IMG/VR virus record: IMGVR_UViG_3300020156_000025 | Coordinates: 1 to 64,000 of that record | Length of the DNA: 64,000 nucleotides | Direction: 5' to 3' (one strand) | Origin: a virus | Shown here: in pieces, positions 273 to 62,893 of the stretch | How the letters are laid out: the number at the start of each line of letters is the position of its first letter | Position numbering within the stretch: the stretch's first letter is position 1 | Notes under the pieces: generated by a model | Database searches by the model: none | The model's input: the letters and a program-made list of their open reading frames with translations, nothing else | Told to the model about the DNA's origin: nothing | Position numbers and translations under genes: made by a program

Positions 273-952
273 TCGCGTTCAACAGGCAATGGATACTGGC
301 CCTGCCGCCGCGCACGGGATCGACCGCCCTTGTGACCGACTTGCGGGAGGAGGGCGGACCGCATGCCGTGGACGGGTTCCACCATACGCCGCTGTCCCGC
401 TACCTTTCCTCGTTCAATGCGTGGCCGGAGGGGTTCACGGGGGTGGTGCTTTACCGGGACCCTGCGGAGAGGCTGGCGTCCGCGTGGTTCCACTCCGTGA
501 CCCAGCACGAGAATGTCCAGCAGGGGATGGGGGTGTTCCGGGTGGACCGGCAGGACTGGAAGATATTCCGGGACTGGGCCAGACAGACGCTCGTGAACAC
601 GTTGGTCCAGAGGGACCGCTACAAGTGGCCGCAGGACATGATCGCCACGGGAAAGGGGCCGCATTACCGGAGGCACGTGTTGACGTGGTCGCTGCCGTGC
701 GCGTGGTGGGCCGGAGGGCTCAGGCACGTGCCGGGTATCATGACATCGCTGGACGGGTTGAAATTGTTCCACCCCGACATGGTGCAGCGCACGGGGCTGG
801 GAGCCAGAGGCGGCACGAGCAACCGCACCAAGAACCACGCGCCGCCCTTGTTCGATGCCGTGACGCTGCTGCGCGACGAATTCGGTAAACGGCTGGAGCG
901 TATTTATGCGGATGACTTCAAGGTTCTTGCAAACTGTGCAAAGCAGGGCTAG
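269..952 (+). CDS. sulfotransferase family 2-like protein
   Basis: 5'-PSB-like PPRTGSTAL, 3'-PB-like RDPAERLASAW, C-terminal IYADDF; start chosen at the ATGA overlap. Confidence 0.65.
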   Translation: MIAFNRQWILALPPRTGSTALVTDLREEGGPHAVDGFHHTPLSRYLSSFNAWPEGFTGVVLYRDPAERLASAWFHSVTQHENVQQGMGVFRVDRQDWKIFRDWARQTLVNTLVQRDRYKWPQDMIATGKGPHYRRHVLTWSLPCAWWAGGLRHVPGIMTSLDGLKLFHPDMVQRTGLGARGGTSNRTKNHAPPLFDAVTLLRDEFGKRLERIYADDFKVLANCAKQG

Positions 953-963
953 ACCGGGGAGGT

Positions 964-1599
964 ATGAACGAGCAACCGACGGGTGACGGGGTAAACCATG
1001 CGAGATTCCTGATCGATGGACCGGAAGGGGAGAGGGTAGCGGTATCGCGCGCGGAACAGGTGTCTTGGTTGAAGGAGCGTCATCCGCTGGCCCGGTTCGG
1101 GCACATGCGGACGTGGGACATCGGGGCGTGCGTGGGGCAGTTCGGAAAGGCGCTGCTCGACGCGGAGTTGATCTTCCGGGAGGACTACTTGGGGTGGGAA
1201 CCGTTCCGCGACCAATACGAGCCGCACGTGACCGGTGCCGATGTAATGTTCCCGCACGTCGTGGTGCAACCGGCGGAGGCGATGGGAGAGTTCGTGTTCC
1301 GGAAGCCGGAGCCGAAGTTCGATCTGATCGCGTTCAACCACGTGCTGGAGCATCTGGACGATCCGCTTGAAGCGTTGGACCTTGCGGAGGTCGCCTTGCG
1401 CAACCGCGACGCGAGGATAATGGTGGCGGTGCCGCATTCGGACGACCAATGGGCGTGGGCGGAGGAGGGGCACCTGTGGATGTTCAACGACGTGACGCTG
1501 GCGCGGGTGGCGGACAGGGCAGGACTGTCGGTGAAGGACTCGCGCGTGGTGTCGTTCGCGCCGGGACGGAAGGAACTCTGGATGATGCTGGGGAGATGA
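964..1599 (+). CDS. class I SAM-dependent methyltransferase
   Basis: Motif I DIGACVG and FDLIAFNHVLEHLDDP...VAVP...GHLWMF, typical of glycan-associated Methyltransf_23 proteins. Confidence 0.8.
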   Translation: MNEQPTGDGVNHARFLIDGPEGERVAVSRAEQVSWLKERHPLARFGHMRTWDIGACVGQFGKALLDAELIFREDYLGWEPFRDQYEPHVTGADVMFPHVVVQPAEAMGEFVFRKPEPKFDLIAFNHVLEHLDDPLEALDLAEVALRNRDARIMVAVPHSDDQWAWAEEGHLWMFNDVTLARVADRAGLSVKDSRVVSFAPGRKELWMMLGR

Positions 1600-1868
1600 G
1601 CAACGGGCACAAGGACATACCCGTGACGGGAGACGGTGGCGGGCAGGGGGGTAGGATAGTCTACCGTTCGTGGCCGCTGTCGATTCCGGTGGGGAGCATG
1701 CTGTCGTGCCGGAAGGAATCGCCCGTCCTTGCCGCGGCCATAGTCGTGATCGAGAAGACGATGGCGAAGAAAGGCATCGAGACTTTCAAGCGATACGGGA
1801 ACCTGATCGTGACGGAACGGGAATGGGTGGGGGCGTTCCACGAGGGGGACGTGCCGGGGGAGCCTTGA
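1596..1868 (+). CDS. hypothetical protein
   Basis: ATGA-coupled to the methyltransferase stop; fills the gap. Confidence 0.45.
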   Translation: MSNGHKDIPVTGDGGGQGGRIVYRSWPLSIPVGSMLSCRKESPVLAAAIVVIEKTMAKKGIETFKRYGNLIVTEREWVGAFHEGDVPGEP

Positions 1869-1889
1869 CGGGAGGGGGACATCGGTGGC

Positions 1890-2237
1890 ATGTTCCCTCC
1901 CGAGATGCAAAATCTGGTCATAAAACGCGGGGCGATCATCGATTTGACGATCAAGGGTAAGAACGCGGAGGGGGAGGACTTCCCGTTTCCCGCGGAATGG
2001 CCCGTGGCCGGGGAGGTCCGGGATTATGCCGAAGCCACACCCGTGCGGCTCGATCTGGAGCCGGTGATCGAGGACGGGGTGATCCGGGTGAAGATATCCT
2101 CGCAGCCGCTTCCGCCGCAGGAATACGAGCTGGGGATCGTGGTGACGGACACCACCACCGATCCGTCCCTGCCCGCACCGTATTGGACGGAGACCGTGAA
2201 GCTGACCGTGCAGCCCGCCCTTCCGGGGGTGGCCTGA
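1890..2237 (+). CDS. small beta-rich virion/tail-associated protein (BppU-N-like)
   Basis: IKRGAIIDLTI...GVIRVKIS...YELGIVVTD...TETVKLTV pattern directly upstream of the tailspike; start may be ATG 1905. Confidence 0.5.
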   Translation: MFPPEMQNLVIKRGAIIDLTIKGKNAEGEDFPFPAEWPVAGEVRDYAEATPVRLDLEPVIEDGVIRVKISSQPLPPQEYELGIVVTDTTTDPSLPAPYWTETVKLTVQPALPGVA

Positions 2238-2270
2238 GTGTGTGCCGGAACCTCATACCGAATAGACAAG

Positions 2271-5530: not shown

Positions 5531-5556
5531 TTCCGCCCGTCCTTCCAAAAACGATT

Positions 5557-6291
5557 ATGCAAACCGTGCAAATAGAGGAGCGCCGGTTGCTGCCGGTGCA
5601 GGAACGTTTCCATGCCTTCCAAGGGGAGGGCGTCCATATGGGGCGTAGTGCGTTTTTCATCCGCACCTACGGGTGTCCGGTGCAATGCCCGTGGTGCGAT
5701 TCCGCGGGGACGTGGCACCATGCCTACCGGCCCGAGGTGGACAAGCTGCGCATGTCGGTCGAGATGCTGGTGGAGGAGGCGCTGTTCTGCAACGCGGAGT
5801 TCGTGGTCGTGACGGGCGGGGAACCGCTGATCCATGACCTTGCGCCGCTCGTGAATGCGTTGCACGGGGAGGGGATTCAGGTGCATCTGGAGACCTGCGG
5901 TGCGTTCCCGATCAAAGGGGGTGCGATCTTCGACTGGATCACGCTGTCGCCGAAGGACAACCGCCCGCCCTTGAAGCACATGCTGCATCTTGCGGACGAG
6001 TTCAAGATCATCGTGGAGAAGCCGGAGGACATTGAACGGTGGTTCGACGTGATCCTTTACGAGACGAACGAATTGAGGGCGGAGACCGTGCAGGTATGGT
6101 TGCACCCGGAGTGGTCGCAACGGGAGAACCCCGCGGTGCTGGGGGCCATCTGCGAGGCGGTAAAGGGGCGGTCGCAGAAGCCGCGCTTCCGTGCCGGGTG
6201 GCAGATGCACAAACCCTACATGGTGGACGCGGGGGATGCACGGACCGCGCCGCGCGTGCCGCTGGGGGGAGACCCGGCGAGGGGGTATTGA
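5557..6291 (+). CDS. queE: 7-carboxy-7-deazaguanine synthase (radical SAM)
   Basis: ERFHAFQGEG...FIRTYGCPVQCPWCDS (CxxxCxxC), VVTGGEP, LETCG, TLSPK, QMHK. Confidence 0.92.
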   Translation: MQTVQIEERRLLPVQERFHAFQGEGVHMGRSAFFIRTYGCPVQCPWCDSAGTWHHAYRPEVDKLRMSVEMLVEEALFCNAEFVVVTGGEPLIHDLAPLVNALHGEGIQVHLETCGAFPIKGGAIFDWITLSPKDNRPPLKHMLHLADEFKIIVEKPEDIERWFDVILYETNELRAETVQVWLHPEWSQRENPAVLGAICEAVKGRSQKPRFRAGWQMHKPYMVDAGDARTAPRVPLGGDPARGY

Positions 6292-6292
6292 A

Positions 6293-6955
6293 ATGCACGC
6301 TTTGCAAAAACCGATTCAACCGAGACATATGAAACCGAGGATGTCCCCGGAGGGGGAGAACGAGCAGGTGAGGGCCGCGGAAGCAGGGGTGCGATGCCTC
6401 TTGCATCTGATCGGGGAGAACACGGAGAGGGAGGGGTTGAAGGACACGCCCGCCCGCTTCGTGAAGGCGTTCCGGGAGATGACGGCGGGGTTGCATGTCG
6501 ATCCGAAGCGGCATCTGGAGAAACGGTTCGCGCTGGACGATGCGGAGGAGAGCATCCGGTATGACGGGGTGGTGCTGTCGGGGTGGCTGCCCTTCGTGTC
6601 GCTGTGCGAGCATCACCTGCTGCCGTTCACGGGGGAGGCGCATATCGCCTATCTGCCCGCGGGGAAGGAGAGGACCGTGGTGGGGTTGTCGAAACTGGCC
6701 CGCTTGCTGGAGGACTATGCCCGCAGGCCGCAGATACAGGAACGCTTGACGCAGCAGGTGGCCGATGCGATCGAGACGGTGCTGCGACCGGAGGGGGTCG
6801 GGGTGGTGCTGAGGGGGAAACATTCCTGCCAGTGGTGCCGCGGGGTGAAGAAACCGGGGAGCATGCTCACGTCGTCCTTGCACGGGAGTTTCAAGACGCC
6901 CGCGGGGAGGATGGAGCTGTTCGAGCTAATCAAATTGGCGAAAGGGGGAGAGTAA
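6293..6955 (+). CDS. folE: GTP cyclohydrolase I
   Basis: EGLKDTPAR, SLCEHHLLPF.G, VGLSKLAR, RRPQIQERLT, HSCQWCRGV. Confidence 0.95.
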   Translation: MHALQKPIQPRHMKPRMSPEGENEQVRAAEAGVRCLLHLIGENTEREGLKDTPARFVKAFREMTAGLHVDPKRHLEKRFALDDAEESIRYDGVVLSGWLPFVSLCEHHLLPFTGEAHIAYLPAGKERTVVGLSKLARLLEDYARRPQIQERLTQQVADAIETVLRPEGVGVVLRGKHSCQWCRGVKKPGSMLTSSLHGSFKTPAGRMELFELIKLAKGGE

Positions 6956-9526: not shown

Positions 9527-9931
9527 ATGCCACAACAGCCACAACAATTCATCGCTCCGCCGCCGGAGAAAAACGGGGTAATCCAAGTCGGGCTTCCGCT
9601 GGTGTTCGGTATTCCGGGCCATATCGCGCCGCTGACCGGGTTGCCGCTCTTGCTGCGGGGAATGAATCTGTTGTTCTGGCAGGAGGACTTCGCCGTGCTG
9701 GAACTGGAATGGTTCGAAACCGACGAGCACGGGGGTCCGGTGCGGATCGGTGACAAGGGGGAGGAATTGTCGATCCGCAGGGGGAGATTCGCGATCGTGG
9801 AGGAGGCCGACGGATCGTGGACGAAGGGTTTCGAGTTGGAAGACTCGCAGCCCGCGGCCCCGGATGCCGGGGTGGCTTTGCAAACCGTGCAAAACAACGA
9901 ATCGACCGAAGATGAACAACACGACCAATGA
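9527..9931 (+). CDS. hypothetical protein
   Basis: ORF in the gene run with normal codon bias. Confidence 0.55.
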   Translation: MPQQPQQFIAPPPEKNGVIQVGLPLVFGIPGHIAPLTGLPLLLRGMNLLFWQEDFAVLELEWFETDEHGGPVRIGDKGEELSIRRGRFAIVEEADGSWTKGFELEDSQPAAPDAGVALQTVQNNESTEDEQHDQ

Positions 9932-13961: not shown

Positions 13962-14012
13962 TCCGTTTTGCACGCTTTGCAAAAACCTACCCTTACCCTG
14001 AGACGAAACGCC

Positions 14013-18367: not shown

Positions 18368-18561
18368 GCGGGGGAGAGAATGACCCGAAGCGAACATTGA
18401 CTCAATCTATTTTGCAAACTGTGCATTTGGTTGACGAAGGTTGACGATTTGGGCAGAGTCCGCGCCAAGTTCACCTTGGCGAGACTTGAACCCGGTAGTG
18501 GAAGTAGGGTCGGAAGGCAGGGCGGGGCGACGCAAACCAAACCAACAATCCATCTAAAAAG

Positions 18562-20321: not shown

Positions 20322-20363
20322 AAGCTCCCTGCCCGCTAGTCCGGGCAGGGGGTTTGTTGTTTT
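20322..20363 (+). terminator. rho-independent terminator after the capsid gene
   Basis: Stem CTCCCTGCCCG / CGGGCAGGGGG followed by TTTGTTGTTTT. Confidence 0.75.
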
Positions 20364-20448
20364 GCACGCTGTGCAAAATAGGTGGAATCCCTATCGCGCA
20401 AAAGGAAGGGTTGCGGGTAAAAAACGGACATGGTAGCGTCCGCGCACC

Positions 20449-23936: not shown

Positions 23937-24109
23937 TAGATTGCCTTGGCTAGGGTGTCGAAAACAAGGAGGGCCTTCTGGCTGGTTGGTTAATACCTCC
24001 TTTTTGCACACCTTGCAAAACCCCGCACGGGTTCTCGGGACAGGCCCGTGCGGGATTGCTTTTCAAGTCCCCTGATGACCCCGCGACCCGCGGCCAATGG
24101 GTAAAGCAC

Positions 24110-33192: not shown

Positions 33193-33929
33193 GGACTCTG
33201 GTGCTGTCCTGCGACACGCTGGGAATGGAGGTGATTCCGACCGTGATCCGCTCGGTCGAACGGCACACGGAGGGGGCGCTGCGGGTGGTGGTGTATTCAC
33301 GGGGAATGCATGCGGAGGGGTTCAGGAGGGGTAGGCTGGAGGTGGAGTTCCGCAGACCGAGGGAAGAATTCGGGCAAGCCAAGGGGCGGATCGCCGCGGA
33401 AATGTTCGACCGCTTGTGGTGCATTGCGGATTTGCAGGACACGGAACGGGTGATGATTCTGGACTGGGACCAACTGGCGGTCGGATGTCTGGAGGAGCTG
33501 TGGGACGTGGAGATGACGGGGCAATTCGGGGCGTTCGTGCGCTCGCCCTTCGGCAAGACGTTCAAGTCGTCCCGGTGGATAGGGGAAGGTTACTGGGCGC
33601 AGGACATGCCGGGGGTGGAGCAACCGTTTTTCCGTTTCGGGGGGATGTTGAATCTGGAGGAGTGCCGGAAGGCGGGGATTTTGCAAACCGTGCAAGGGTT
33701 GGCGGGGAATGGATCGACCGAGCAGGCGTTGCTGGCCCACGCAATGGGAGGGAACTACGCGGGGTTGGACCGGAAATGGAACAATCTTGTCAAATACGAG
33801 GGCTTGGTTCCGGATGCCCGCATCCTGCATTGGCACGGGGGGAAGAAGCCTTGGAGCCACGACGGGCTGGACCATGCGGAGTTGTGGCACGCGGCCCGGT
33901 GCTCGTGGAGGGAAATCCGGTTGACTTGA
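33189..33929 (+). CDS. GT8-family glycosyltransferase
   Basis: RVMILDWD (DxD), LEELW, MLNL, EQALL, LDRKWN, ILHWHGGKKPW. Confidence 0.8.
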   Translation: MRTLVLSCDTLGMEVIPTVIRSVERHTEGALRVVVYSRGMHAEGFRRGRLEVEFRRPREEFGQAKGRIAAEMFDRLWCIADLQDTERVMILDWDQLAVGCLEELWDVEMTGQFGAFVRSPFGKTFKSSRWIGEGYWAQDMPGVEQPFFRFGGMLNLEECRKAGILQTVQGLAGNGSTEQALLAHAMGGNYAGLDRKWNNLVKYEGLVPDARILHWHGGKKPWSHDGLDHAELWHAARCSWREIRLT

Positions 33930-37839: not shown

Positions 37840-37846
37840 CAACCTT

Positions 37847-38584
37847 TTGCAAACCGTGCAAAAACGCCTGCGACCGAATGGACTGGAGTGGTCATTGACG
37901 GTGCTCACCGCGTTGGCGTGGGGCACCTTGCTGTTGTTCCTGATGCAGACGTGCAAGGGGGCCACGGGGAACATTGCAGCGGGACCGCTGGAAATCTCCC
38001 CGCAGGCGCATGCGCTGATCGTCAAGCATGAGACGGGAGGGGAAGCGTATTACCGGCGCTACCTGTCGAAGCCGTCTTGGCCGGGGGGTCAGAGCGGGGT
38101 CACGGTGGGCATCGGCTACGATGTGGGGTATAACACGAAGGCGCAGGTGCTGGCCGATTGGAAGCGGCTGCCGGAGGTGCAGCGGAACGCGCTCGCCACG
38201 GCTGCCGGGGTGAAGGGGGCGCTGGCCAAGCAACGTGCCCGGGGGTTGCGATGGTTCGGGGTGCCGTGGCCGCAGGCCAAGGAGGTGTTCGAGGCGCGGA
38301 GCATGCCCCGGTTCGGGGTGCTCGTGGCCAAGGCGTTCCCGGGAGTGACCACGATGCACCCGCACGTTCAGGGGGTGATGCTGTCGCTGGGGTTCAACCG
38401 GGGGACCGCGATGGCGGGGGCGTCCCGGCTGGAGATGCGGCAGTGCCGGGAGGCAATCCCGGAGAACCCGCGCGCCTTGCCGGGGTATATCCGCAGGATG
38501 AAAAGGCTGTGGGTCGGGAAGGGACTGGACGGATTGTTGCAACGGAGGGAAGAAGAAGCTTGCCTGATCGAGCGGGCCTTGTAG
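37847..38584 (+). CDS. endolysin (lysozyme/pesticin-like muramidase) with N-terminal hydrophobic segment
   Basis: LIVKHETGG...WPGGQSGVTVGIGYDVG...SLGFNRG...GLLQRREEEA; start TTG 37847 or GTG 37856. Confidence 0.8.
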   Translation: MQTVQKRLRPNGLEWSLTVLTALAWGTLLLFLMQTCKGATGNIAAGPLEISPQAHALIVKHETGGEAYYRRYLSKPSWPGGQSGVTVGIGYDVGYNTKAQVLADWKRLPEVQRNALATAAGVKGALAKQRARGLRWFGVPWPQAKEVFEARSMPRFGVLVAKAFPGVTTMHPHVQGVMLSLGFNRGTAMAGASRLEMRQCREAIPENPRALPGYIRRMKRLWVGKGLDGLLQRREEEACLIERAL

Positions 38585-38845
38585 GGTGGGCGTCGGTTTC
38601 CCGCGCCGGGGGGTGCACAAGGGGAGCCGTCCATAAGAGACTAAAGTCACACCCCGCGCGCATGATCCAAGGGGAGGCATGCCGCGGGGTGTTTCGTGCC
38701 CGCGTGTCACACTCTATAATACGGCGTGCCGTGTAACCGCTGCTAACCCCCCGGAACCGAAAATAATCGGATTTCGCCGTCAAGTAATACTCAATGAGTT
38801 ACGACGATTTATACCCCTCGTTAATGCAAACTTTGCAAAATCGAC

Positions 38846-38873
38846 TTGCTAAACGAAACCCGGACTGTATCCT
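38846..38873 (+). promoter_or_regulatory. early promoter repeat
   Basis: TTGCTA-AACGAAACCCGGACTG-TATCCT. Confidence 0.7.
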
Positions 38874-38900
38874 GTGGACACATTCGATCTGCTTCCGCCC

Positions 38901-39236: not shown

Positions 39237-39286
39237 TTTTTGCACACTGTTCAAAACCGCCTGAAACCCTCCACCCTCACACGACC

Positions 39287-41291: not shown

Positions 41292-41385
41292 GAGGATTTC
41301 AACCGGGGGACGCGGGGCGGCGGTTTTCTGTAAGGGAACGTCTTTGCAAACTTTGCAGAATCCGCCCCGTCTCCCCCGTATTTTA

Positions 41386-45249: not shown

Positions 45250-46619
45250 TCGCGGAATTCGAGACCAAGGAGGAGGAGCAGGCGTATTTCGGATCGTTCT
45301 ACAGATACAAGCTGTGGAGCATGCGGATGATCCGCGACTGGTGGCCGCTGCTGACGAACTCGCAGAGGATCGTGCTGACCTTCGTGTTCGACCGCACGAT
45401 CGGGTGGCGGAAGAGATGGGAGCAGGTGACGTTGCACCACCTGACCCACGGGGTGGAGTCGGAGGACGGGAAGGAATGGATCGGGGGAACGGGGTTGTCG
45501 AAACCGACCCTGATCGAGGCGATGCGGGGGTTGCGGGACATGGGGTTGATACTGGACCGGTGGAACCCGCAGAGGCAGCGCAACGAAATCTGCATCGAAC
45601 TGGAATGGAACCTCGTGGAAGGGGAAACGATCGAAACGAGCCGACATATGGGAGGATTACCGGAACCGAAGAGAGGGCACCGCGGGGGGCGCGGGGCGGG
45701 GAATTTTGCAAACCGTGCAAAGCCCGGAAGGGGGGAAGGGGAGGTCCCGGAAGGGGGGGAGGGTGTAAAGAAACCTTACCCTGCGGGTGTAAAGAAACTT
45801 TACCCTAATAATAAGAAAGGGAAAAACCATAGGTTGAATGCTACGCATTCAACGGGTTCCCCGGGGGAAGGGGAGGCTCCGGGGACGGAGGGGGAGACCC
45901 CTGCCGATGCCGATGCAGCACCCGCTGCCGCCCTTGCCGATGTCGCCGCATCCGCTCTTGCCCGCACGCGGGAACGCCGGGAGGCGAAAAAGGGGAAGGG
46001 AGGAGCCGCGGGGATCGCGGCGGTGTGGGACGACGCGGTGCGTGCCGCCTTGCCCGATGCGCCGCGGGTGGCGGTGACGAAGGCGGACGTGGCAATCCTC
46101 GGGAAATATGCCCGCCGTTTCGCTGCCGCGAATCCCGCGACGCCGTTCGCGGAATACGTGGGGTGGTGCGTAGGGTGGTGGGCGGTGATCCGCGCGCAGG
46201 AGTTCGGGTGGATGCGGGACGGGGGGCCGGAGTTGCCGTCGATCCGCTTTCTCGTGAAGTTCTCGGACCGGTTCGAGCAATGCCACGCGCACCGCGCCGC
46301 CCTTGAGCAGAGGGCCGCGATGACGGCGAGGGAACTGGAGATCGACCGCAGGGTGCGGAGGGGGCAGACGCGGGACGCCGCGGAGCTGGAGGTGGACAAG
46401 GTGGACGCGCTGCGCCGGGAGCAGCGGAAGTTGGAGGATGCGCGGAGGGCGCTGGCGCAGGAGCGCAGGATGGGGGAGGCGGCGTCGGCCCGGAGAGCGG
46501 AGGCGGAACGGCGGAAGGCGGAACTGCGGGAACGCCGGGAACGCATCGACGTTGCCCGCCGCCGCGCCGCGGAATCGCCCGATCCGTCCGGGGCCGGGGG
46601 CTTCGGAACGTGGGATTAG
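45246..46619 (+). CDS. replication initiator (lambda O-like N-terminal wHTH)
   Basis: LTNSQRIVL..V.DRTIGWRK....V...GTGLSK.T....L.DMGLI; internal direct repeats; upstream of DnaC-like and DnaB genes. Confidence 0.7.
   Translation: MIAEFETKEEEQAYFGSFYRYKLWSMRMIRDWWPLLTNSQRIVLTFVFDRTIGWRKRWEQVTLHHLTHGVESEDGKEWIGGTGLSKPTLIEAMRGLRDMGLILDRWNPQRQRNEICIELEWNLVEGETIETSRHMGGLPEPKRGHRGGRGAGNFANRAKPGRGEGEVPEGGEGVKKPYPAGVKKLYPNNKKGKNHRLNATHSTGSPGEGEAPGTEGETPADADAAPAAALADVAASALARTRERREAKKGKGGAAGIAAVWDDAVRAALPDAPRVAVTKADVAILGKYARRFAAANPATPFAEYVGWCVGWWAVIRAQEFGWMRDGGPELPSIRFLVKFSDRFEQCHAHRAALEQRAAMTARELEIDRRVRRGQTRDAAELEVDKVDALRREQRKLEDARRALAQERRMGEAASARRAEAERRKAELRERRERIDVARRRAAESPDPSGAGGFGTWD
45761..45806. 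repeat. iteron-like tandem repeat (candidate replication origin)
   Basis: GGGTGTAAAGAAACCTTACCCT (45761-45782) and GGGTGTAAAGAAACTTTACCCT (45785-45806), followed by an A-rich tract. Confidence 0.7.
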
Positions 46620-48641: not shown

Positions 48642-48688
48642 GCAGGAATATGCACACTTTGCAAAAAGGCACGAAACGGAACGACACG

Positions 48689-51580
48689 ATGAAAAGAAGA
48701 GCAAGCAAGCACATCAATAGCGTGGGTAATCTGGACGATCCGGACGTGGTGTTCGTGTGCGATTCGCCGTGGCAACAGGTGTGGGACGAAGGGGGGGTGA
48801 TGACCGGACCGCAAATGGACATCGTGCGGGAGGCGTGCGCGGGGGCCGGGTTGAAGGGGAACCGCTGCGCGTTCATCACCTGTTCCCCGCCGATTCCGCC
48901 GGAGGCGGCGGCGACGGACGCGAGGACGAGGGATTTCCTCGCCTTGCACGCGGAGGAGTTCGCGGAGGAGTTGGGGCGCTTGCTGCCGACGGCGAAGCTG
49001 GTGGTGCCGTTCGGGAAAACCGCGCTGCGGATGGTGGCGGGGAAGTCGGTGGAGATTTCCAAGTGCCGGGGCACCGTGGGGAGGTTCGCGAACGCGGGGG
49101 AGGTGCCGGTGCTGCCGTTGTTCTCGCCCGCGCACGTGTTGCGCAAGCCCGAGGTGAGGGGGGTGTTCGAGTCGGACTTCGGGCAGATACGGGCGTTGCG
49201 GGAATCGGGCTGGGACGGGACGATCTTCGAGCGTTCGATCGCGGGGGCGCACTACGAGTGGGTGACGGACCTGTCGCCCTTGCTCGCGGAGAGGCCGAAG
49301 CGGCTGGCCTTGGACACCGAGACGCTGGGTTACGAGTGGCGGCACGGGAGGCGCATCCTGACGGTGCAATTGACGTGGAAGAAAGGGCACGCGTGGGTGG
49401 TGCCGTTGCAGCGGGGTTACTTCAACAATCCGGAGTTGCGGGGGGAATCGACCCGGCACCTGCCCTTGTTGTCGAAGGTGGACGTGCGGAGACTGGAAGG
49501 GCAGTTGCGGGAGCTGCTGGGGGACCCCCGGACCAAGGTGGTGGGGCACAACCTGAAATACGACCTCCACCACCTGCGCAACCACGGGATCGAGGTGGCG
49601 AACTGGTATGCGGACACGATGCAGTTGGCGTTCCTCGCGGACGAGAACATGCTGTCGAAGTCGTTGGACGATTGCGCCCGGCGCTGGGTGCCGGAGCTGG
49701 GGGGGTATGCGGACGCGTTCAACACCGATCCGGTGCATCAAGGGAAGAGCAGGATGGATCTGGTGCCGCACGACAAGATGATCCGTTACGGGGGCGGGGA
49801 CACGGATGCGTGCTTCCGCCTGTGCGAACGGTTGGTGGAGCTGGGGATGCAGGACGAGCGGCAATGGACCACGTTCCGGCGGGTTCAGATGCCGGGGTTG
49901 AGGACTTTTTTCGAGATGGAACGGAAGGGCATCCGGATCGACCGCGACGCGCTGCGCGAACTCGGGACGGTGCTGGCGAGGCAGGAGCAGGAGATGTATC
50001 AGTCGCTGATGCGGCAGGCCGCGGCCAAGGCTCCCGCCGTGCTGCGCAGGCACGAGGCGGCGGGGTTGTCGTTCACTCGGTCGGCGTTCACGGCGGACCT
50101 GTTGTTCTCGACCGACGGGTTCAAGTTGAAGCCGATCGTGTTCACGGACGGGACCAAGAACCTGCCGGACGAGGAGAAGATACCGAGCACGAGCACGAAA
50201 ACGCACCTGCCCTTTTTCGACCATATCCCGTTCGTGGCGGAGTTGATCGAATACCAGCAGGTGCAGAAGATGCGCAGCACCTACGTGGGATTGCCGGGAG
50301 GGGAGGAATCCGTGCTGCTCAAGCGGACGGCGAAAGGGAAGGTCAACGCGGCGGTGGTGCGGTTGTTCCGGGAGGCGGGAAGGGAGGATGAACTGCCCCC
50401 GGCCAAGACCGTGCCGGTGCGGTCGCGCAACCGGATGATGAAGATAGAGCCGGTGAAGGCGGAGGTGGTGGCCTCGGTGACATCGCCGAAGGGGGGGTTC
50501 CGGATCGACGTGGACACGGCGGGGGATTGCTGGAAGGTCGGGCAACGCGAACCGACCGGGTTCTGGCAGTATCTCGGGGAGGGTCTGGAGGGGGACATCA
50601 TCCATCCTTCGTTCCGTCTGGACAATACGGTGACGGGCCGCTCGTCGTCGCAGAATCCGAACGCGCAGAATTTCCCGAAGCGGGGGAAGCTGGCGAAGGC
50701 ATACCGGAAAATCTTCAAGCCCCGGCCCGGGTTCGTGTTCATCGAGTGCGACCTTTCGCAGGCTGAACTCCGGATCGCGGCGTGGATGGCGAACGATCCG
50801 GTGATGCTCCGCATTTACCGCGAGGGCGGGGACATCCATACGATGATCGCGGCCCGGTCGATGGGACTCACGGACGGGGCGTTCGCGGAACTTCCCGCGG
50901 AGGAACGCAAGGCGGCGCGGCAGAAGGCGAAGGCGGTGAACTTCGGGTTCCTCTACGGGATGTGGTGGAAGAAATTCAAGAATTACGCCAAGACGCAATA
51001 CGGGGTGTCGCTGACGGACCGGGAGTCGGAGAAGATGCGGGAAATGTTCTTCCGCACGTTCCCGGCGCTGGAGGGGTGGCACACGGACATGAAGGCGTTC
51101 GTGAACCGGCACGGGTTCGTGCGTTCGTTGCACGGGGCGTTGCGGCGGTTGCCGGACATCAACTCCAACGACAAGGGGGTGCAGCAGGAGGCGGAGCGGC
51201 AGTCGGTGAACTCGCCCGTGCAACGCTTCGCGTCGGACGTGGGGATCATGGCGATGGCCAGGTTCGGGAGGGATTGCCCGTGGGACGACATGTTCCCGGT
51301 GGCGTTCATCCATGACGCGCTCGTGGTGGAGGCGAGGGAGGAACGCGCGGAGGAGTGCGCGGCGGCAATGAAATATTGCATGGAGACGGTGCCGTTGGAG
51401 GCGTGGTTCGGAATCGTGCCGCCCTTGCCTATCGTGGCGGACGTGAGTATCGGAACCTCGCTGGGGGAGATGGAGGAGAGGCCGGACATCGTGGCCGCGA
51501 TGCCCGCGTGGTTCCGTCCGGAACTCGACCTTGCGCCCCCGGCGGGGAGTGTTTTGCAAACCGTGCAAAATCGCGGGTGA
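48689..51580 (+). CDS. polA: family A DNA polymerase with N-terminal UDG-like domain and 3'-5' exonuclease
   Basis: Exonuclease motifs DTET, HNLKYD, YGGGD; polymerase motifs TGRSSS..PN.QN, DLSQAELR, RQKAKAVNFGFLYG, IHDAL. Confidence 0.95.
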   Translation: MKRRASKHINSVGNLDDPDVVFVCDSPWQQVWDEGGVMTGPQMDIVREACAGAGLKGNRCAFITCSPPIPPEAAATDARTRDFLALHAEEFAEELGRLLPTAKLVVPFGKTALRMVAGKSVEISKCRGTVGRFANAGEVPVLPLFSPAHVLRKPEVRGVFESDFGQIRALRESGWDGTIFERSIAGAHYEWVTDLSPLLAERPKRLALDTETLGYEWRHGRRILTVQLTWKKGHAWVVPLQRGYFNNPELRGESTRHLPLLSKVDVRRLEGQLRELLGDPRTKVVGHNLKYDLHHLRNHGIEVANWYADTMQLAFLADENMLSKSLDDCARRWVPELGGYADAFNTDPVHQGKSRMDLVPHDKMIRYGGGDTDACFRLCERLVELGMQDERQWTTFRRVQMPGLRTFFEMERKGIRIDRDALRELGTVLARQEQEMYQSLMRQAAAKAPAVLRRHEAAGLSFTRSAFTADLLFSTDGFKLKPIVFTDGTKNLPDEEKIPSTSTKTHLPFFDHIPFVAELIEYQQVQKMRSTYVGLPGGEESVLLKRTAKGKVNAAVVRLFREAGREDELPPAKTVPVRSRNRMMKIEPVKAEVVASVTSPKGGFRIDVDTAGDCWKVGQREPTGFWQYLGEGLEGDIIHPSFRLDNTVTGRSSSQNPNAQNFPKRGKLAKAYRKIFKPRPGFVFIECDLSQAELRIAAWMANDPVMLRIYREGGDIHTMIAARSMGLTDGAFAELPAEERKAARQKAKAVNFGFLYGMWWKKFKNYAKTQYGVSLTDRESEKMREMFFRTFPALEGWHTDMKAFVNRHGFVRSLHGALRRLPDINSNDKGVQQEAERQSVNSPVQRFASDVGIMAMARFGRDCPWDDMFPVAFIHDALVVEAREERAEECAAAMKYCMETVPLEAWFGIVPPLPIVADVSIGTSLGEMEERPDIVAAMPAWFRPELDLAPPAGSVLQTVQNRG

Positions 51581-54221: not shown

Positions 54222-54605
54222 ATGTCCGACGAACACCCAACCGAAGCCGTCCGCGCCATGATCCGGGGCGTTTTCGGAAGCTGCGAAGACTTCGAAGACC
54301 GTCCTTGCGCGGTGGCGGTGGTGGAGTTGCCCGGGGGTGCGGTGATGGTGGCGATGGAGGACAACGGGTGCGTGGTGGTGCCCGATTTGCGGGAGTTGTC
54401 GGTGCTGCGGCTGGTCGCGGCTGGATTCGACTACTTCACCGCGGAGAGACTTTCGGTGTGGCTGGCCGGGACAACTTTGCAAACCGTGCAAAGCTCCGGA
54501 CCGGAGACACCGTTGATGGAAAGCAGCGAGGCTGCATCGAACCGCCCCGGAGGGGCATTGAAAGAAGAAACAAACCAAACGACACAGGACAATGGCCAAG
54601 AATAA
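54222..54605 (+). CDS. hypothetical protein
   Basis: ORF 8 nt after the promoter -10. Confidence 0.55.
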   Translation: MSDEHPTEAVRAMIRGVFGSCEDFEDRPCAVAVVELPGGAVMVAMEDNGCVVVPDLRELSVLRLVAAGFDYFTAERLSVWLAGTTLQTVQSSGPETPLMESSEAASNRPGGALKEETNQTTQDNGQE

Positions 54606-57856: not shown

Positions 57857-57914
57857 TCCCGACGGGAACCGCTTTGCATGCTTTGCAAAAATCAACCGAC
57901 CAAACAGACAACCG

Positions 57915-58286
57915 ATGAACGAGGATGAACCGAACCAAACCCCGGTGCGCTCGCGCCGTGCGCGTGCCGCGGGGGCAGTGAACCGGCACGAGGGTGCCGC
58001 GACCGTGGAGACGGAATTGAAAACCCCGGACGTGGAGCGCCCGTCCAAGACCCGCGCGCTCGCCCTTCCGGTCGAGGGTCTGCCGCCCGATCCGGCCTAC
58101 GTGACGATAGGCGCGGGGTTCATGGAGAATCTCGGTAACTATGAATCGCTGCGGATTTATGCCTCCGTGACCTTGCCGTGCGACAACACGCGGAGCGCCA
58201 TCGTGAAGGCGAAGGACCGGGCACTCGCCTTGGTCGAGGAGTTCGTGGAAGACGAACGCCGCGCGATGCTCCAGACGAGGAGTTGA
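57915..58286 (+). CDS. conserved phage hypothetical protein
   Basis: VTIGAGF.ENLGNYESLRI.ASVTLPC; upstream of recA. Confidence 0.65.
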   Translation: MNEDEPNQTPVRSRRARAAGAVNRHEGAATVETELKTPDVERPSKTRALALPVEGLPPDPAYVTIGAGFMENLGNYESLRIYASVTLPCDNTRSAIVKAKDRALALVEEFVEDERRAMLQTRS

Positions 58287-60280: not shown

Positions 60281-60284
60281 AGCT

Positions 60285-60677: not shown

Positions 60678-61696
60678 GTCTTGCCCGCCGCGTGTTGCAG
60701 ACGATGCGGGAACCCCGGAATCCCGGGCCGCAGAGCGTTCCGGTGCGCTCGCGCCGTCCTGTTTTGCAAACCGTGCAAACCGAGAGTCCCGCCGCCGGAA
60801 CGGAAGAGGAGGAGGAGGACGAGCCGTGCGTGACGGCGGGATGGGACGTGGAGCAGGCGTTCGTGACCCGCGCCGCCCTTGTGATGGACCGACAGGGGGA
60901 GGAGTCCCGGACGGGTAGCGAGCTAATCCACCTGTCTTCCATGCTGGCGAAAGACTGGTGCCCGAGGAGACACGTGTTGGCGGCGCGACACGGGGAACGC
61001 CAACTCAAGAGGGTGATGGCTCAGGACCGGATCGTGTGGGAGATGGGACGGGCGGCGGAAAGGCACCTGCGGAACCAGTTCATCGCGTCGCACGGGAGGA
61101 CTCGGGTGGTGGGCAGATGGCAATGTGCGTGCGAGGCGCTCAAGGTGGACGGAAGGGGGCTGTCTGCCGCCGCCTTGCGTTCGGGCAGGCATCGCTGCGC
61201 ACGTTGCAACGGGAACCCGATACACTACGGGGAGCTTCCGGTGACGGGGGACAACCTGACGGGTTCCCCGGACTTGCAATTCATTGAGGGTGCCTCGGTG
61301 GGGCGGCACGTCACCGAGATCAAATCGATCAACAAGCGGGAATACGACCTGCTGACGGGTCCGCTGCCGGTGCACGTGCTCCAGTTGTCGGGCTATGTGC
61401 TGATGCTGCGGGCGGCGGGGGTGGTGGTCGATACAGCCCGGGTGGCGTATGTCTGCAAGGACTACGTGCCGCCGGGAACCAGTCCCTACAAGGAGTATGT
61501 GGTGATGCGACCGGGGCTGGAGTTGCCCGCCGCGCAACGGGCCGGGATCGGGCTGATCCAAGAGCAGGCGTCCGCGCTGGGAGCCACGCTCAGGAACTCG
61601 GGGCCTTTGCCGCCCCGGCTGACCAAGTGCACGGCTCCGACCGCGACGGCGGCGAAGGGGTGCAGCCAGTGCGCGCTGTGCTTTTCCTTGGACTGA
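60674..61696 (+). CDS. Cas4-like PD-(D/E)XK exonuclease
   Basis: WCPR, G.PD, EIKS, QLSGY, C-terminal C...C..C...C cluster; internal CxC/CxxC insert. Confidence 0.72.
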   Translation: MSLARRVLQTMREPRNPGPQSVPVRSRRPVLQTVQTESPAAGTEEEEEDEPCVTAGWDVEQAFVTRAALVMDRQGEESRTGSELIHLSSMLAKDWCPRRHVLAARHGERQLKRVMAQDRIVWEMGRAAERHLRNQFIASHGRTRVVGRWQCACEALKVDGRGLSAAALRSGRHRCARCNGNPIHYGELPVTGDNLTGSPDLQFIEGASVGRHVTEIKSINKREYDLLTGPLPVHVLQLSGYVLMLRAAGVVVDTARVAYVCKDYVPPGTSPYKEYVVMRPGLELPAAQRAGIGLIQEQASALGATLRNSGPLPPRLTKCTAPTATAAKGCSQCALCFSLD

Positions 61697-61730
61697 GGCC
61701 GGGGACATGCTAGGGCTACCGGAGCAACCG

Positions 61731-62324
61731 ATGAACAGCCAACCAGTGAGGAGCAGGAGATCGCCGCGGGGGATAAAAACGATGGGCATAGACCCGTCCT
61801 TGAACGGCACCGCGGTGGTGGCGTGGCAGAAGGAGCTTGACCCGGAACTCTACGGACCCGCGGGGGCGGTGCTGGAGATGCATCTGACTCCCAAGCTCAC
61901 GGGCATGGAGAGACTGGTGTGGCTGAGGGAGCAAATGCTCGCCATTATCGAGGGGGCGAGACCGGACGTGATCGTGCTTGAGGACTATGCGCTGGGGATA
62001 AGGGGGAAGGGACTGATCGGGTCGCTGGAGTTCGGCGGGGTGCTCAGGTTGCTGTTGCACGAATGGTCCCGGATGAGGAACGTTCCGGTGTGGAAGATAC
62101 CCCCGGCCAACCTTAAACAATTCACGACGGGGAAAGGGAATGCGGATAAGCCGCAGATGGTGATGGCGTGCTATAAGCGATGGAGCTACGATCCGTTGGG
62201 GTCGAGTCACGATTTGGCCGACGCCTATGCGCTGGCGCGGGTGGGACACGCGCTGGTCGATCCCTCCGTGAAAACAACACAGGTGGAACGCTCCGCGCTG
62301 TCAAAGGCGGTGCGTCTCGTGTAA
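61731..62324 (+). CDS. ruvC: RuvC-like Holliday junction resolvase
   Basis: GIDPSL..T, VLEDY, P.NLK...TGKGNADK, DLADAYALA. Confidence 0.85.
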   Translation: MNSQPVRSRRSPRGIKTMGIDPSLNGTAVVAWQKELDPELYGPAGAVLEMHLTPKLTGMERLVWLREQMLAIIEGARPDVIVLEDYALGIRGKGLIGSLEFGGVLRLLLHEWSRMRNVPVWKIPPANLKQFTTGKGNADKPQMVMACYKRWSYDPLGSSHDLADAYALARVGHALVDPSVKTTQVERSALSKAVRLV

Positions 62325-62432
62325 CTGCCCGTATCCCTGAAATTAGGCGATAGGGGGGAATTTTCCTCGGTTAAGAATCAACGAGTTATACCGGTTTCTG
62401 CAAAGATTTGCTGCAAACTTTGCAAAATCGAC

Positions 62433-62461
62433 TTGCTAAACGATACCCGGTGCCGCATGCT
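62433..62461 (+). promoter_or_regulatory. early promoter repeat
   Basis: TTGCTA-17 nt (AACGATACCCGGTGCCG)-CATGCT; 32 bp identical to 38825-38856 starting at 62412. Confidence 0.7.
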
Positions 62462-62485
62462 GTCCCCCGTCAACCGAAACCGCCA

Positions 62486-62782
62486 ATGAAAACCGATCCT
62501 GATACTTCCACGTTGTCTATCGCTGCCGACAAGTTCCGTTTGTTCGATTTCACCGATCCGGACAACAAAACCCTCCGCACCTACGCAACCCGCGAGCGAC
62601 TGAATACCGCAATCGATCGTCTTGCGTCCGGTTTGTTGCAATCCTTTCGCTCCAGCGTGACGCTGGTGCCGCTGTGCACGCCTGCCGGTCGCCATACCGC
62701 GCTGTTTATCCTTCGTTCTGACACCGCCCACTTGACTACGTTTTTCGTGAATCGCGGATTCGCGGTCTATGTGGGAGGCTGA
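62486..62782 (+). CDS. hypothetical early protein (lower GC)
   Basis: First ORF after the promoter. Confidence 0.55.
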   Translation: MKTDPDTSTLSIAADKFRLFDFTDPDNKTLRTYATRERLNTAIDRLASGLLQSFRSSVTLVPLCTPAGRHTALFILRSDTAHLTTFFVNRGFAVYVGG

Positions 62783-62893
62783 TCCTTGTCCCCCGTCCGC
62801 CCCGGAACTTTTTGCAAACTGTGCATTGCGTTCCGGGGCGGGAGGGAGCCAAGCTCCGCTCCGCAACAAAAACAACCGACCAAAAACAGAGAA

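What the first reader, a model, noticed from the sequence alone, without database searches (positions are those of the whole stretch)
928..62825. Genome-wide, quasi-periodic TGCA-N5-TGCA site array
Seen: at least 22 copies of consensus TTTGCA-(A/C)(A/G)C(C/T)(G/T)-TGCAAA, which is AT-rich in a GC-rich genome; fewer than about one is expected by chance for the 8 fixed bases. About half lie inside genes in different frames (LQTVQ, ANRAK, AQCAN, ANCAK), so this is a DNA-level signal. The asymmetric spacer (AACCG, AACTT, AACTG, CGCTT and others) always reads the same way on the + strand. Across the replication arm the gaps are 2944, 2904, 2923, 3397 and 2890 bp (45707, 48651, 51555, 54478, 57875, 60765); left-arm gaps are mostly 2-5.5 kb. 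Four copies sit just upstream of the early promoter repeat. Established: mycobacteriophage L5 stoperators are dispersed, oriented repressor sites, and matS/parS sites organise DNA. Inference: binding sites for a dimeric protein that coats or organises the whole genome (silencing, stepwise DNA entry, nucleoid organisation or self-marking). No integrase is visible here, so a non-lysogenic role is plausible. Candidate binders are 10728-11267, 57296-57856 and 62894-63991.
Basis: partly seen in the sequence, partly recalled or inferred. Interest (0 to 1): 0.78.

Follow-up and report, generated by a model that had tools for sequence, protein, structure and literature searches.

The report
Evenly spaced palindromic boxes in phage
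A soil phage and its uncultured relatives each carry dozens of copies of a lineage-specific 17-19 bp palindrome spread at unusually even distances over the whole genome, most likely binding sites for an unidentified protein that acts genome-wide.

Summary
The window holds 25 TGCA-N5-TGCA matches against 0.65 expected. Of these, 22 plus one variant are true 19-bp boxes, TTTTGCA-MRCYK-TGCAAAA. The whole 89,984-bp phage record has 34.

New here:
- Related uncultured phages carry the same architecture with other cores: TGAC-N5-GTCA, TGAA-N5-TTCA, TGCA-N6-TGCA.
- An unrelated phage contig has 38 TGCA-N5-TGCA boxes in 35 kb.
- Spacing is more even than random in 7 of 8 genomes tested. It is not periodic: the ~2.9-kb run has P = 0.22.
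- Boxes sit in free non-coding slots, just after stop codons and ahead of a promoter or start codon. In the related phages 17 of 113 lie deep inside genes, several of them long.
- The only asymmetry in this phage is the centre base: C in 33 of 34 boxes.
- Flank changes are not compensated, so hairpin selection is unlikely.
- No integrase was found and there are no prophage relatives.
- The lambda-O-like initiator has its own iterons, which are not the box.

The binder remains unidentified.

Best reading: a stoperator/KorB-like genome-wide operator array (0.4). Rivals are a DNA-metabolism coverage role and a phage-specific promoter.

The scan noted the same boxes from another window of this genome (e1-6114815).

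The parts
925..943 (+). box (TCTTGCAAACTGTGCAAAG), in the last codons of gene 269-952, 23 nt before start 964
5555..5573 (+). box between QueD-like and QueE-like genes, 16 nt before start
6291..6309 (+). box 2 nt after QueE-like stop, 22 nt before FolE-like start
9876..9894 (+). box near the end of gene 9527-9931, 20 nt before start 9912
13966..13984 (+). box 7 nt after the portal stop
18410..18428 (+). box 136 nt upstream of the major head gene
20360..20378 (+). box directly after the terminator-like hairpin that follows the major head gene; a box occupies the same interval in G001, G003 and G004
24002..24020 (+). box between tail genes 23616-23936 and 24149-24562; a box occupies the same interval in G001 and G004
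27350..27368 (+). box deep inside the 1038-aa tape-measure gene
32823..32841 (+). box (the only one with centre A) in the gap 32632-33084
33679..33697 (+). box inside gene 33084-33929
37845..37863 (+). box 8 nt after a stop, 34 nt before the next start
38822..38840 (+). box 8 nt upstream of an early-promoter repeat
39238..39256 (+). variant box (second half TTCA), 33 nt before start 39287
41342..41360 (+). box after the AAA+ gene, 29 nt upstream of the promoter repeat at 41385
45704..45722 (+). box inside the linker of the lambda-O-like initiator gene, 38 nt before its iterons
48648..48666 (+). box at the DnaB / DNA polymerase junction
51552..51570 (+). box in the last codons of DNA polymerase, 21 nt upstream of the promoter repeat at 51589
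54475..54493 (+). box after primase, inside small gene 54312-54605; a box occupies the same interval in G001
57872..57890 (+). box 18 nt after a stop, 27 nt before start 57915
60762..60780 (+). box at or inside the 5' end of the exonuclease gene
62409..62427 (+). box 8 nt upstream of the promoter repeat at 62432; a box occupies the same interval in G001
62810..62828 (+). box forming the loop of a longer GC-rich inverted repeat, 68 nt before gene 62894
38845..38883 (+). sigma-70-like 'early promoter repeat' (CTTGCTAAACGA...); other copies at 39568, 41385, 51589, 62432 and, outside the window, about 66934

Best explanation
The boxes are double-stranded-DNA binding sites for a two-fold symmetric, lineage-specific DNA-binding protein that I could not identify. 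The array, not the single site, is the working unit.

Sites are kept at roughly even distances over the whole chromosome. They are parked in whatever non-coding slot exists, right behind a stop codon and ahead of the promoter or ribosome-binding site of the next gene. Some also lie inside long genes, where no such slot exists.

The most likely job is genome-wide control of RNA polymerase traffic, in the manner of mycobacteriophage stoperators or the KorB operators of plasmid RK2. Protein bound at each box, or spreading from it, would limit or insulate transcription along the single co-directional gene array. It would also sit just upstream of the strong host-type early promoters.

Shown: the site class, its statistics, its placement, its turnover between relatives and the lack of hairpin covariation. 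Inferred: protein binding, the dimer, and the transcriptional output.
For: - Discrete site class. There are 34 sites of at least 24 bits, nothing between 10 and 24 bits, and shuffles reach at most 18 bits.
- Same architecture with changed half-sites in relatives. G001 has 19 copies of TTGAC-N5-GTCAA. G003 has TGCA-N6-TGCA, G004, G005 and G007 have TGAA-N5-TTCA, and G006 has TGAA-GTGTC-TTCA. Both halves change together, as for a dimer.
- Within a genome, flank deviations are not compensated. In G000 only 1 of 12 and 1 of 11 deviant pairs at flank positions 1 and 2 still pair, and total pairing equals the shuffle expectation. This argues against a hairpin and for base-specific recognition.
- Placement. 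39 of 109 boxes begin -3 to +10 nt after a stop (random positions 1.8%). 34 of 113 have a start codon less than 40 nt downstream (random 6.3%). Only 17 of 113 are deep inside genes.
- Strong sigma-70-like promoters follow within 75 nt at 11 of 113 boxes, against 1.6% of 3,200 control positions, mostly at offset 5-13. Five of the 6 early-promoter repeats of G000 have a box 8-29 nt upstream.
- Even spacing in G000, G001, G003, G004, G005, G006 (CV 0.28-0.60; P 0.044 down to 0 of 5000, also against random gene starts) and in G008.
- The centre base is C on the coding strand in 33 of 34 boxes, so the array is polar relative to the one transcription direction.
- The box is the only widespread intergenic motif besides the early promoter repeat.
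- Published analogues, passages read: Cluster O 17-bp dyad repeats (PMC4351075), oriented TLS/T1 repeats (PMC11447400), KorB OB sites with long-range silencing (PMC11790492). For stoperators I read the abstract of PMC9283540.
Against: - No binder was found. Among 49 unannotated proteins the only regulator-like hit is a weak MarR_2 match, in a protein without homologues in the relatives.
- No lysogeny functions were found, so a repressor-type silencer lacks its usual context.
- Boxes lie upstream of the -35 element, not over the promoter.
- Boxes that overlap or hug the stop codon are badly placed to end the upstream transcript cleanly.
- In G008, 26 of 38 boxes are inside genes.
- Box positions are conserved with G001 (8 shared of 33 intervals, P = 0.003) but not with G003 (P = 0.95) or G004 (P = 0.32). 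This fits a coverage function better than gene-specific control.
- Orientation bias is weak or absent in G003, G004 and G006.
- All genes share one strand, so polarity relative to transcription cannot be told apart from polarity relative to replication or packaging.
Confidence: 0.4

Rival explanations
1. Coverage function in DNA metabolism rather than transcription. The boxes would be evenly spaced entry or action sites for a replication, recombination, nicking, packaging or condensation factor. Examples are helicase or primase reloading, T5-like site-specific nicks, or loading sites for a spreading ParB-type protein. They would sit between genes only because that is where a 19-bp palindrome costs nothing.
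For: - Even spacing in 7 of 8 genomes.
- Boxes inside long genes: the tape-measure and QueC-fusion genes in G000, PolA in G001, and in G008 five in a 1734-aa ORF and two in a 964-aa ORF.
- Positions turn over between relatives while evenness is kept.
- A box always lies upstream of, never inside, the expression signals of the next gene.
- A strand-fixed centre base could mark a nick or a template strand.
- ParB_N-domain genes were found in 9 of the 11 records checked; none in G008, G007 not checked.
- There is a large recombination module: UvsX-like, endonuclease VII, a PD-(D/E)XK nuclease, an exonuclease and a RuvC-like protein.
Against: - No enzyme is linked to the box.
- The ParB_N proteins are small and show no helix-turn-helix, and ParB_N genes are common in phages generally (recalled).
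- The O-like initiator has its own iterons.
- Isolated half-sites are at background frequency.
- The consistent 8-10 nt spacing to -35 elements in several genomes hints at an interplay with RNA polymerase.
- No read-level data exist: the runs found are held as contigs only.
Confidence: 0.25
2. The box is itself a phage-specific (middle or late) promoter. Transcription would start just 3' of the box and give short leaders. Where a box precedes a sigma-70-like promoter, the two would be tandem promoters used at different times.
For: - 34 of 113 boxes have a start codon less than 40 nt downstream, often with the order box, 4-12 nt, Shine-Dalgarno, ATG.
- In G000 several leaders are short, CA-rich and lack a Shine-Dalgarno sequence.
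- No other repeated motif that could be a late promoter exists in the structural region.
- After the major head gene the order terminator-then-box is conserved in G000, G001 and G003.
- The number, co-orientation and intergenic bias resemble T7-type promoter sets (recalled).
Against: - No phage RNA polymerase or sigma factor was found in the PHROGs and Pfam scans.
- A palindromic promoter is unusual.
- Boxes deep inside long genes, and 26 of 38 boxes inside genes in G008, make no sense as promoters.
- Positions are poorly conserved with G003 and G004.
- Shine-Dalgarno use does not differ between box-proximal genes and the rest (16 of 48 against 251 of 613, P = 0.36).
Confidence: 0.15
3. The binder is a host protein, such as a global regulator or nucleoid protein whose site differs between host lineages. 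Phages would accumulate its sites to recruit or titrate it.
For: - An unrelated phage contig (G008) carries the same TTTTGCA-N5-TGCAAAA box as G000. Only an AAA+ domain and a GroES-like protein match between them.
- Distant relatives G009 and G012 also use TGCA-N5-TGCA.
- Close relatives of G000 use other cores. This would fit specificity set by the host.
- No phage-encoded binder was found.
Against: - The host is unknown, so the site could not be looked for in host genomes.
- The box does not match the spacing of the regulator sites I could recall (FNR/CRP, LacI family, ARG box, matS; recalled, not tested).
- Recruiting a host factor at 1 site per 0.9-6 kb, evenly spaced, has no known precedent.
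Confidence: 0.1
4. RNA-level (or single-strand DNA) hairpin with a 6-7 bp stem and a 5-nt loop. It would act in mRNA processing, stability or translation at gene junctions.
For: - All boxes are transcribed in one sense.
- They lie at gene junctions.
- Both halves change together between genomes.
- The loop centre is strand-specific in G000.
Against: - No compensation within genomes.
- The four variant boxes break a core pair (C-U or A-G).
- Boxes upstream of promoters are not in the transcript made from those promoters.
- No Rfam family matches.
- The stem is weak and AU-rich.
Confidence: 0.05

Closest known systems
17-bp dyad repeats of Cluster O mycobacteriophages (Corndog: TGTTCGG-NNN-CCGAACA, 34 copies) - PMC4351075, passages read
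   Same: - More than 30 copies spread over a roughly 70-kb siphovirus genome.
- Invariant inverted arms around a variable centre.
- About one third lie in coding DNA and the rest between genes.
- The phage is not obviously temperate.
- ParB-like domain proteins and an AAA ATPase are present.
- The authors predict a dimeric binder, and the function is unknown.
   Different: - The sequences are unrelated, with a 3-nt rather than a 5-nt centre.
- The authors saw no meaningful orientation and a denser right end. Here the centre base is strand-fixed (33 of 34) and spacing is significantly even.
- Here the motif core changes between relatives. The five Cluster O genomes are too similar to show that.
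Stoperators of mycobacteriophage L5 / Cluster A - PMC9283540 abstract and PMC6550527 search listing; details recalled
   Same: - Two to three dozen dispersed sites, mostly in short intergenic gaps.
- One orientation relative to transcription.
- The consensus differs between related phages.
   Different: - Stoperators are asymmetric 13-bp sites bound by a monomeric immunity repressor of temperate phages.
- Here the sites are dyad-symmetric, no repressor or integrase was found, and no site overlaps a promoter core.
KorB operators (OB, TTTAGC-S-GCTAAA) of plasmid RK2 - PMC11790492, passages read; number and classes of sites recalled
   Same: - A palindrome with T-rich and A-rich outer flanks, dispersed over a replicon.
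- Some sites sit next to promoters and some far from any promoter.
- The bound protein acts over kilobase distances.
   Different: - KorB is a ParB-family CTPase with a DNA-binding domain and partner proteins.
- The ParB_N proteins here show no DNA-binding domain.
- OB has a 1-bp centre, not a 5-nt one.
21-nt oriented intergenic repeats of T1-like phage TLS - PMC11447400, passages read
   Same: - A virulent siphovirus without its own RNA polymerase.
- 18-21 co-oriented intergenic repeats of unknown function.
- The authors themselves compare them with stoperators and UP elements.
   Different: - The TLS repeats are direct, not palindromic.
- They lie about 76 nt upstream of start codons.
Lambda-type origin iterons inside the O gene (recalled)
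   Same: - 19-bp dyad-symmetric sites.
- One box lies inside the O-like gene in G000, G001, G004 and L040.
   Different: Each O-like gene carries its own separate tandem iterons with a different sequence, so the box is not the iteron.

Membership tests
L5-type stoperators | Many dispersed copies, mainly in short intergenic gaps | tested here: met
   There are 34 copies. Only 6 of the 34 are deep inside genes.
L5-type stoperators | Asymmetric site read by a monomeric repressor | tested here: not met
   The site is a 19-bp near-palindrome. Only the centre base is asymmetric.
L5-type stoperators | Orientation follows the direction of transcription | tested here: inconclusive
   33 of 34 boxes have centre C on the coding strand. 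But 117 of 120 called genes share one strand, so no reversed arm exists to test. Relatives show weaker bias.
L5-type stoperators | Temperate phage with a cognate immunity repressor, and one site acting as operator over the early promoter | tested here: not met
   No PF00589 or PF00239 match and no prophage relatives. No repressor-like family was found. Boxes lie 8-29 nt upstream of the -35 element.
Cluster O-type dispersed dyad repeats (function unknown) | More than 30 invariant inverted repeats with a variable centre throughout a non-temperate siphovirus genome | tested here: met
   The comparison is with passages of PMC4351075. The sequence and the phage lineage are unrelated, so this is likeness of kind, not homology.
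ParB/KorB-type loading sites | A ParB-family protein with a site-specific DNA-binding domain encoded by the same element | tested here: inconclusive
   ParB_N-like genes were found in G000, G001, G003, G004, G005, G006, G010, G011 and G012; none in G008, G007 not checked. By eye, the alignment shows only the N domain, an acidic linker and in some a CxxC tail. These proteins were not scanned for a DNA-binding domain here.
Lambda-type ori iterons | Tandem copies inside the initiator gene, bound by the O-like protein | tested here: not met
   The tandem iterons at 45761-45806 have a different sequence and are unique in the genome. The box occurs there once.
Phage single-subunit RNA polymerase promoters (T7 type) | A phage-encoded RNA polymerase, and a conserved asymmetric promoter of about 20 bp ending at the transcription start | tested here: not met
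   No RNA polymerase or sigma family turned up in the PHROGs and Pfam scans of about 120 proteins. The site is palindromic. The transcription start could not be tested.
Intrinsic terminators | A GC-rich hairpin followed by a U tract | tested here: not met
   The T tract precedes the AU-rich stem and an A tract follows it. Only 8 of 113 boxes have a strong hairpin just upstream, close to the 5% expected.
DpdA (7-deazaguanine) target motif | Co-occurrence with dpdA and que genes | tested here: not met
   G001 is a complete record with 19 boxes. It has no orthologue of the QueD, QueE, FolE, DpdA-like or QueC-like genes.

The most novel reading that the evidence does not exclude
Lytic phages of several unrelated lineages keep an evenly spaced lattice of palindromic landing sites, one per 0.9-6 kb, placed inside genes where necessary. 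The lattice would serve a protein that must reach every part of the phage chromosome. It would then be a phage chromosome-organising or chromosome-marking system: for example loading sites for a spreading or sliding protein, or for replisome or recombination reloading. Its specificity would be re-set in each lineage. That would be a new functional class, and it would also explain the unexplained Cluster O repeats.
Probability: 0.3. Interest if true: 0.8.

Novelty: new variant of a known kind. Interest (0 to 1): 0.6.

Why it matters
Dispersed repeats of unknown function have been on record in a few phage groups for years without an explanation: the Cluster O 17-bp repeats since 2015, and the T1/TLS repeats.

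This case adds three handles.
- The array is statistically even, which points to coverage of the whole DNA molecule.
- The architecture is conserved while the half-site is re-set between relatives. This gives a natural covariation experiment for finding the binder.
- An unrelated phage carries the same box at three times the density, mostly inside genes.

If the binder is found, it would show how a virulent phage with one 90-kb co-directional gene array partitions or marks its chromosome.

Tried and rejected
- Box as 7-deazaguanine (DpdA) target. Rejected: G001 has boxes but no que or dpdA orthologues.
- Lambda-O-like initiator (45246-46619) as binder. It was attractive because a box lies inside that gene in G000, G001, G004 and L040. 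But each O-like gene has its own tandem dyad iterons. By eye, the recognition helix does not follow box type. The distance from box to iterons is 38-1200 bp; my rough hand estimate (no call) suggests this is not clearly closer than chance.
- Protein 10764-11267 (weak MarR_2). It has no homologue in any relative, so it cannot be the family-wide binder.
- ParB_N proteins. Present in nearly all relatives, but no DNA-binding domain was seen. Left as a lead.
- Family-conserved unknown proteins.
  - 51705-52079: the atlas suggests it is DUF7173-like. The structure model has pLDDT 49.9 and is unusable.
  - 43020-43391: the model has pLDDT 76.1, and no PDB fold match at E <= 0.001.
  - PDB profile searches of alignments A3, A4 and A6 gave nothing better than E 0.14.
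- RNA evidence. Two soil metatranscriptome runs hold small shares of the stretch, only as short low-depth contigs scattered over it. They say nothing about starts, ends or strand. The loose ends of the DNA run at 38825 and 39229 are assembly branch points at repeated box-plus-promoter cassettes, not DNA ends.
- Terminator coupling. Only 8 of 113 boxes follow a strong hairpin.
- Shine-Dalgarno replacement. No difference between box-proximal genes and the rest.
- Isolated half-sites are at background frequency.
- Cultured relatives. None: TerL identity is at most 32% in GenBank phages, and the DNA search gave only short polymerase matches.
- The host could not be identified. There are no tRNA genes and no prophage relatives.
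- The test 'conservation at synonymous positions' also could not be run, because no relative is close enough to share the same box at the same codons.
- Literature search for evenly spaced phage palindromes returned nothing relevant. I make no claim that the phenomenon is absent from print. Supplementary files were not consulted.

Full report
**What the sequence is.** The window is bases 1-64000 of an 89,984-bp IMG/VR virus record. It has 62.9% G+C, and a 10-base overlap of its ends suggests a circular assembly. My codon-usage gene caller finds 120 ORFs, 117 of them on the + strand.

PHROGs and Pfam identify the following:
- QueD-, QueE- and FolE-like genes
- small and large terminase, portal, protease, major head protein and tape measure
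- an AAA+/DUF1257/DUF2997 block
- a lambda-O-like initiator, DnaB, PolA, primase and a helicase
- UvsX-like recombinase, endonuclease VII, an exonuclease, a RuvC-like protein and RNase H
- a ParB_N-like protein next to a DpdA-like transglycosylase, and a QueC fusion

No tyrosine or serine recombinase was found. There are no tRNA genes, no Rfam match and no cultured close relative (TerL at most 32% identical). The major head protein has no relatives in 185,579 species genomes. A soil metagenome run holds the stretch completely. I read it as an uncultured, apparently virulent soil siphovirus.

**The observation.** TGCA-N5-TGCA occurs 25 times in the window against 0.65 expected, and 34 times in the record against 3 for the reversed control pattern. 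Thirty of the 34 have T-rich left and A-rich right flanks. A weight matrix built from them finds exactly 34 sites of at least 24.3 bits: those 30 plus four one-base core variants at 39241, 67426, 74088 and 83325. Nothing scores between 10 and 24 bits, and 20 shuffles reach at most 18.0 bits. The consensus is TTTTGCA-[AC][AG]C[CT][GT]-TGCAAAA.

Read as half-sites, the two spacer dinucleotides draw on the same set (AA, CA, CG on either side) and occur in both arrangements: AA with CG 10 times and CG with AA 3 times. The site is therefore a 19-bp palindrome whose only strand-fixed feature is the centre base: C 33, A 1, G 0. This is despite a G-rich + strand.

**Relatives.** TerL and major-head searches of IMG/VR gave nine related contigs. 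None has the TGCA-N5 box. Each has its own box with the same architecture, ttTGnn-N5-nnCAaa:
- G001 (87,985 bp, complete, 44 shared proteins): 19 copies of TTGAC-CGTCG-GTCAA
- G002: the same core as G001
- G003 and L015: TGCA-CGATCT-TGCA, with an N6 spacer
- G004, G005, G007: TGAA-N5-TTCA
- G006: TGAA-GTGTC-TTCA
- L019: TGCA-CGATG-TTCA

More distant contigs, found with the O-like protein, have TTGCAC-N4-GTGCAA or TGCAC-N3-GTGCA.

A scan of IMG/VR for the full G000 pattern gave mostly single hits. One contig stood out: G008 (35 kb, 51% G+C). It has 38 TGCA-N5-TGCA boxes with free spacers. Its genes are unrelated to G000 apart from an AAA+ domain and a GroES-like protein.

**Spacing.** The coefficient of variation of the gaps is 0.51 (G000), 0.46 (G001), 0.60 (G003), 0.52 (G004), 0.43 (G005) and 0.28 (G006), against about 0.9 for random placement. 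P ranges from 0.044 down to 0 of 5000 simulations, and is about the same when the null picks random gene starts. G008 has CV 0.47 (0 of 5000). G012 has CV 0.65, P = 0.15, not significant. The array is over-dispersed, not periodic.

**Placement** (113 boxes in 8 related genomes):
- 39 of 109 boxes begin -3 to +10 nt after the stop codon of the upstream gene. The stop is often the TGA of the box itself. Random positions give 1.8%.
- 34 of 113 have a start codon less than 40 nt downstream, against 6.3% for random positions.
- 17 of 113 are deep inside genes, several of them long: the tape-measure and QueC-fusion genes in G000, and PolA in G001.
- Strong sigma-70-like promoters follow 11 of 113 boxes, against 1.6% of control positions, mostly 5-13 nt after the box.
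- In G000, five of the six early-promoter repeats have a box 8-29 nt upstream.

In G008, 11 boxes fill tiny gaps just before start codons and 26 lie inside genes, five of them in one 1734-aa ORF.

Box positions are shared with G001 more often than chance (8 of 33 ortholog intervals, P = 0.003). They are not shared with G003 (P = 0.95) or G004 (P = 0.32). The slot after the major head gene is the most constant one.

**DNA or RNA.** When a flank base departs from T...A, the partner does not compensate. In G000 only 1 of 12 and 1 of 11 deviant pairs still pair, and total pairing equals the shuffle expectation. The four core variants break a pair. Boxes upstream of promoters are outside the transcripts made from those promoters. 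The evidence therefore favours base-specific recognition of duplex DNA by a symmetric protein. The joint change of both halves between genomes fits a dimer whose specificity evolves.

**Who binds.** I could not tell.
- The O-like initiator was the first suspect. PF04492 matches 3 of 4 orthologues, best E 1e-3, below the cut-off, and a box lies inside the gene in four genomes. But every O-like gene carries its own tandem dyad iterons. In G000 these are two copies of a 22-bp repeat at 45761-45806, overlapping and followed by the most A+T-rich stretch of the gene. That is the likely origin, and it uses a different sequence.
- ParB_N-like genes were found in 9 of the 11 records checked, but I saw no DNA-binding domain in them.
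- Among 49 unannotated G000 proteins the only regulator-like Pfam hit is a weak MarR_2 match in 10764-11267. That protein has no homologue in any relative.
- Structure prediction of two family-conserved unknown proteins gave nothing usable.

**Reading.**
- I hold with about 0.8 confidence that the boxes are protein-binding sites on DNA and that the array as a whole is what is selected.
- For the output I commit, at 0.4, to genome-wide control of transcription of the stoperator/KorB kind. In favour: polarity with the single transcription direction, the seat just upstream of strong early promoters, and the lack of any other intergenic motif. The best-understood dispersed site arrays on phage and plasmid replicons that I could compare here are transcriptional (stoperators, KorB; PMC9283540 abstract, passages of PMC11790492). 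Further cases are recalled, not checked: P1 C1 operators, phiC31 conserved inverted repeats.
- The main rival (0.25) is a DNA-metabolism coverage role. It explains the evenness, the intragenic boxes and the positional turnover at least as well, but has no enzyme attached to it.
- A promoter role (0.15) fits the short leaders. It does not fit the intragenic boxes or the absence of a phage polymerase or sigma factor.
- A host-encoded binder (0.1) is raised by G008 sharing the G000 box.

**Comparison with what is known.** The nearest published case is the 17-bp dyad repeat of Cluster O mycobacteriophages. It has 34 copies, a third of them in coding DNA, the phages are not temperate, and the function is unknown (PMC4351075, passages read). 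The T1-like phage TLS has oriented 21-nt intergenic repeats, also unexplained (PMC11447400, passages read). This finding is a new variant of that kind. The additions are the demonstrated evenness, the strand-fixed centre base, the re-setting of the half-site among relatives, and the occurrence of the same box in an unrelated phage.

Noticed in passing
window 45761-45806 (inside gene 45246-46619): Two tandem 22-bp dyad-symmetric iterons (GGGTGTAAAGAAACYTTACCCT, spacing 24) overlap and are followed by the most A+T-rich stretch of the gene (up to 72% A+T in a 63% G+C genome). They lie in the linker of a lambda-O-like initiator gene that sits upstream of DnaB. This is a likely replication origin. 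The O-like genes of G001, G003, G004 and L040 each have their own 2-3 tandem iterons.
   Followed up: partly
window 5000-6955; record 78475-79425 and 86923-89355 (L005/L006): A 7-deazaguanine DNA-modification gene set: QueD-, QueE- and FolE-like genes, a DpdA-like transglycosylase next to a ParB_N-like gene, and an 810-aa QueC-like fusion. It is absent from the complete relative G001.
   Followed up: partly
G008 = IMGVR_UViG_3300026142_000152 (L159, L160): An unrelated 35-kb phage contig with 38 TTTTGCA-N5-TGCAAAA-type boxes (1 per 0.92 kb). They are evenly spaced, their spacers are free, and 26 lie inside genes, including five in one 1734-aa virion protein ORF. Shine-Dalgarno motifs are rare in it (about 7-9% of genes).
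   Followed up: partly
window 7098-7131, 55603-55636, 57942-57975, 60725-60756: A repeated DNA stretch coding P-V-R-S-R-R occurs in otherwise unrelated genes: small terminase, 54592-55764, 57915-58286 and the exonuclease. One copy lies immediately before box 60765. It is possibly a shared docking peptide. Earlier notes of the scan flagged it too.
   Followed up: no
window 38785-38863, 62372-62450; record about 66880-66960; also 39229-39267 and record 67414-67452: Longer duplicated cassettes (box plus early promoter, and variant box plus flanks) occur in three and two copies. They break the source assembly graph at these points (loose ends).
   Followed up: partly
window 17711-18337 (minus strand): This is the only convincing minus-strand gene. 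It encodes a glycosyltransferase-like protein lying between the head protease and the major head gene. Methyltransferase and sulfotransferase hits occur among nearby unknown genes.
   Followed up: no
window 60243-60677: A small protein carrying a PD-(D/E)XK-type nuclease motif (D...E-x-K). It is 50-56% identical in G001 and G003, and lies between the endonuclease VII-like and exonuclease genes.
   Followed up: no
G001 (L009-L013): G001 has further repeated intergenic motifs: CCTTGCAAAGGTT (about 11-15 copies, promoter-like), TTCTAACAGTTGAA, and CCCTAGATTGC, which follows two boxes by about 12 nt.
   Followed up: no
window 15734-15764, 302-332, 31271-31301: Copies of a motif ending in CGCCCTTG appear among the direct-repeat families. 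Earlier notes of the scan call this octamer strand-polar and over-represented. I did not test that.
   Followed up: no
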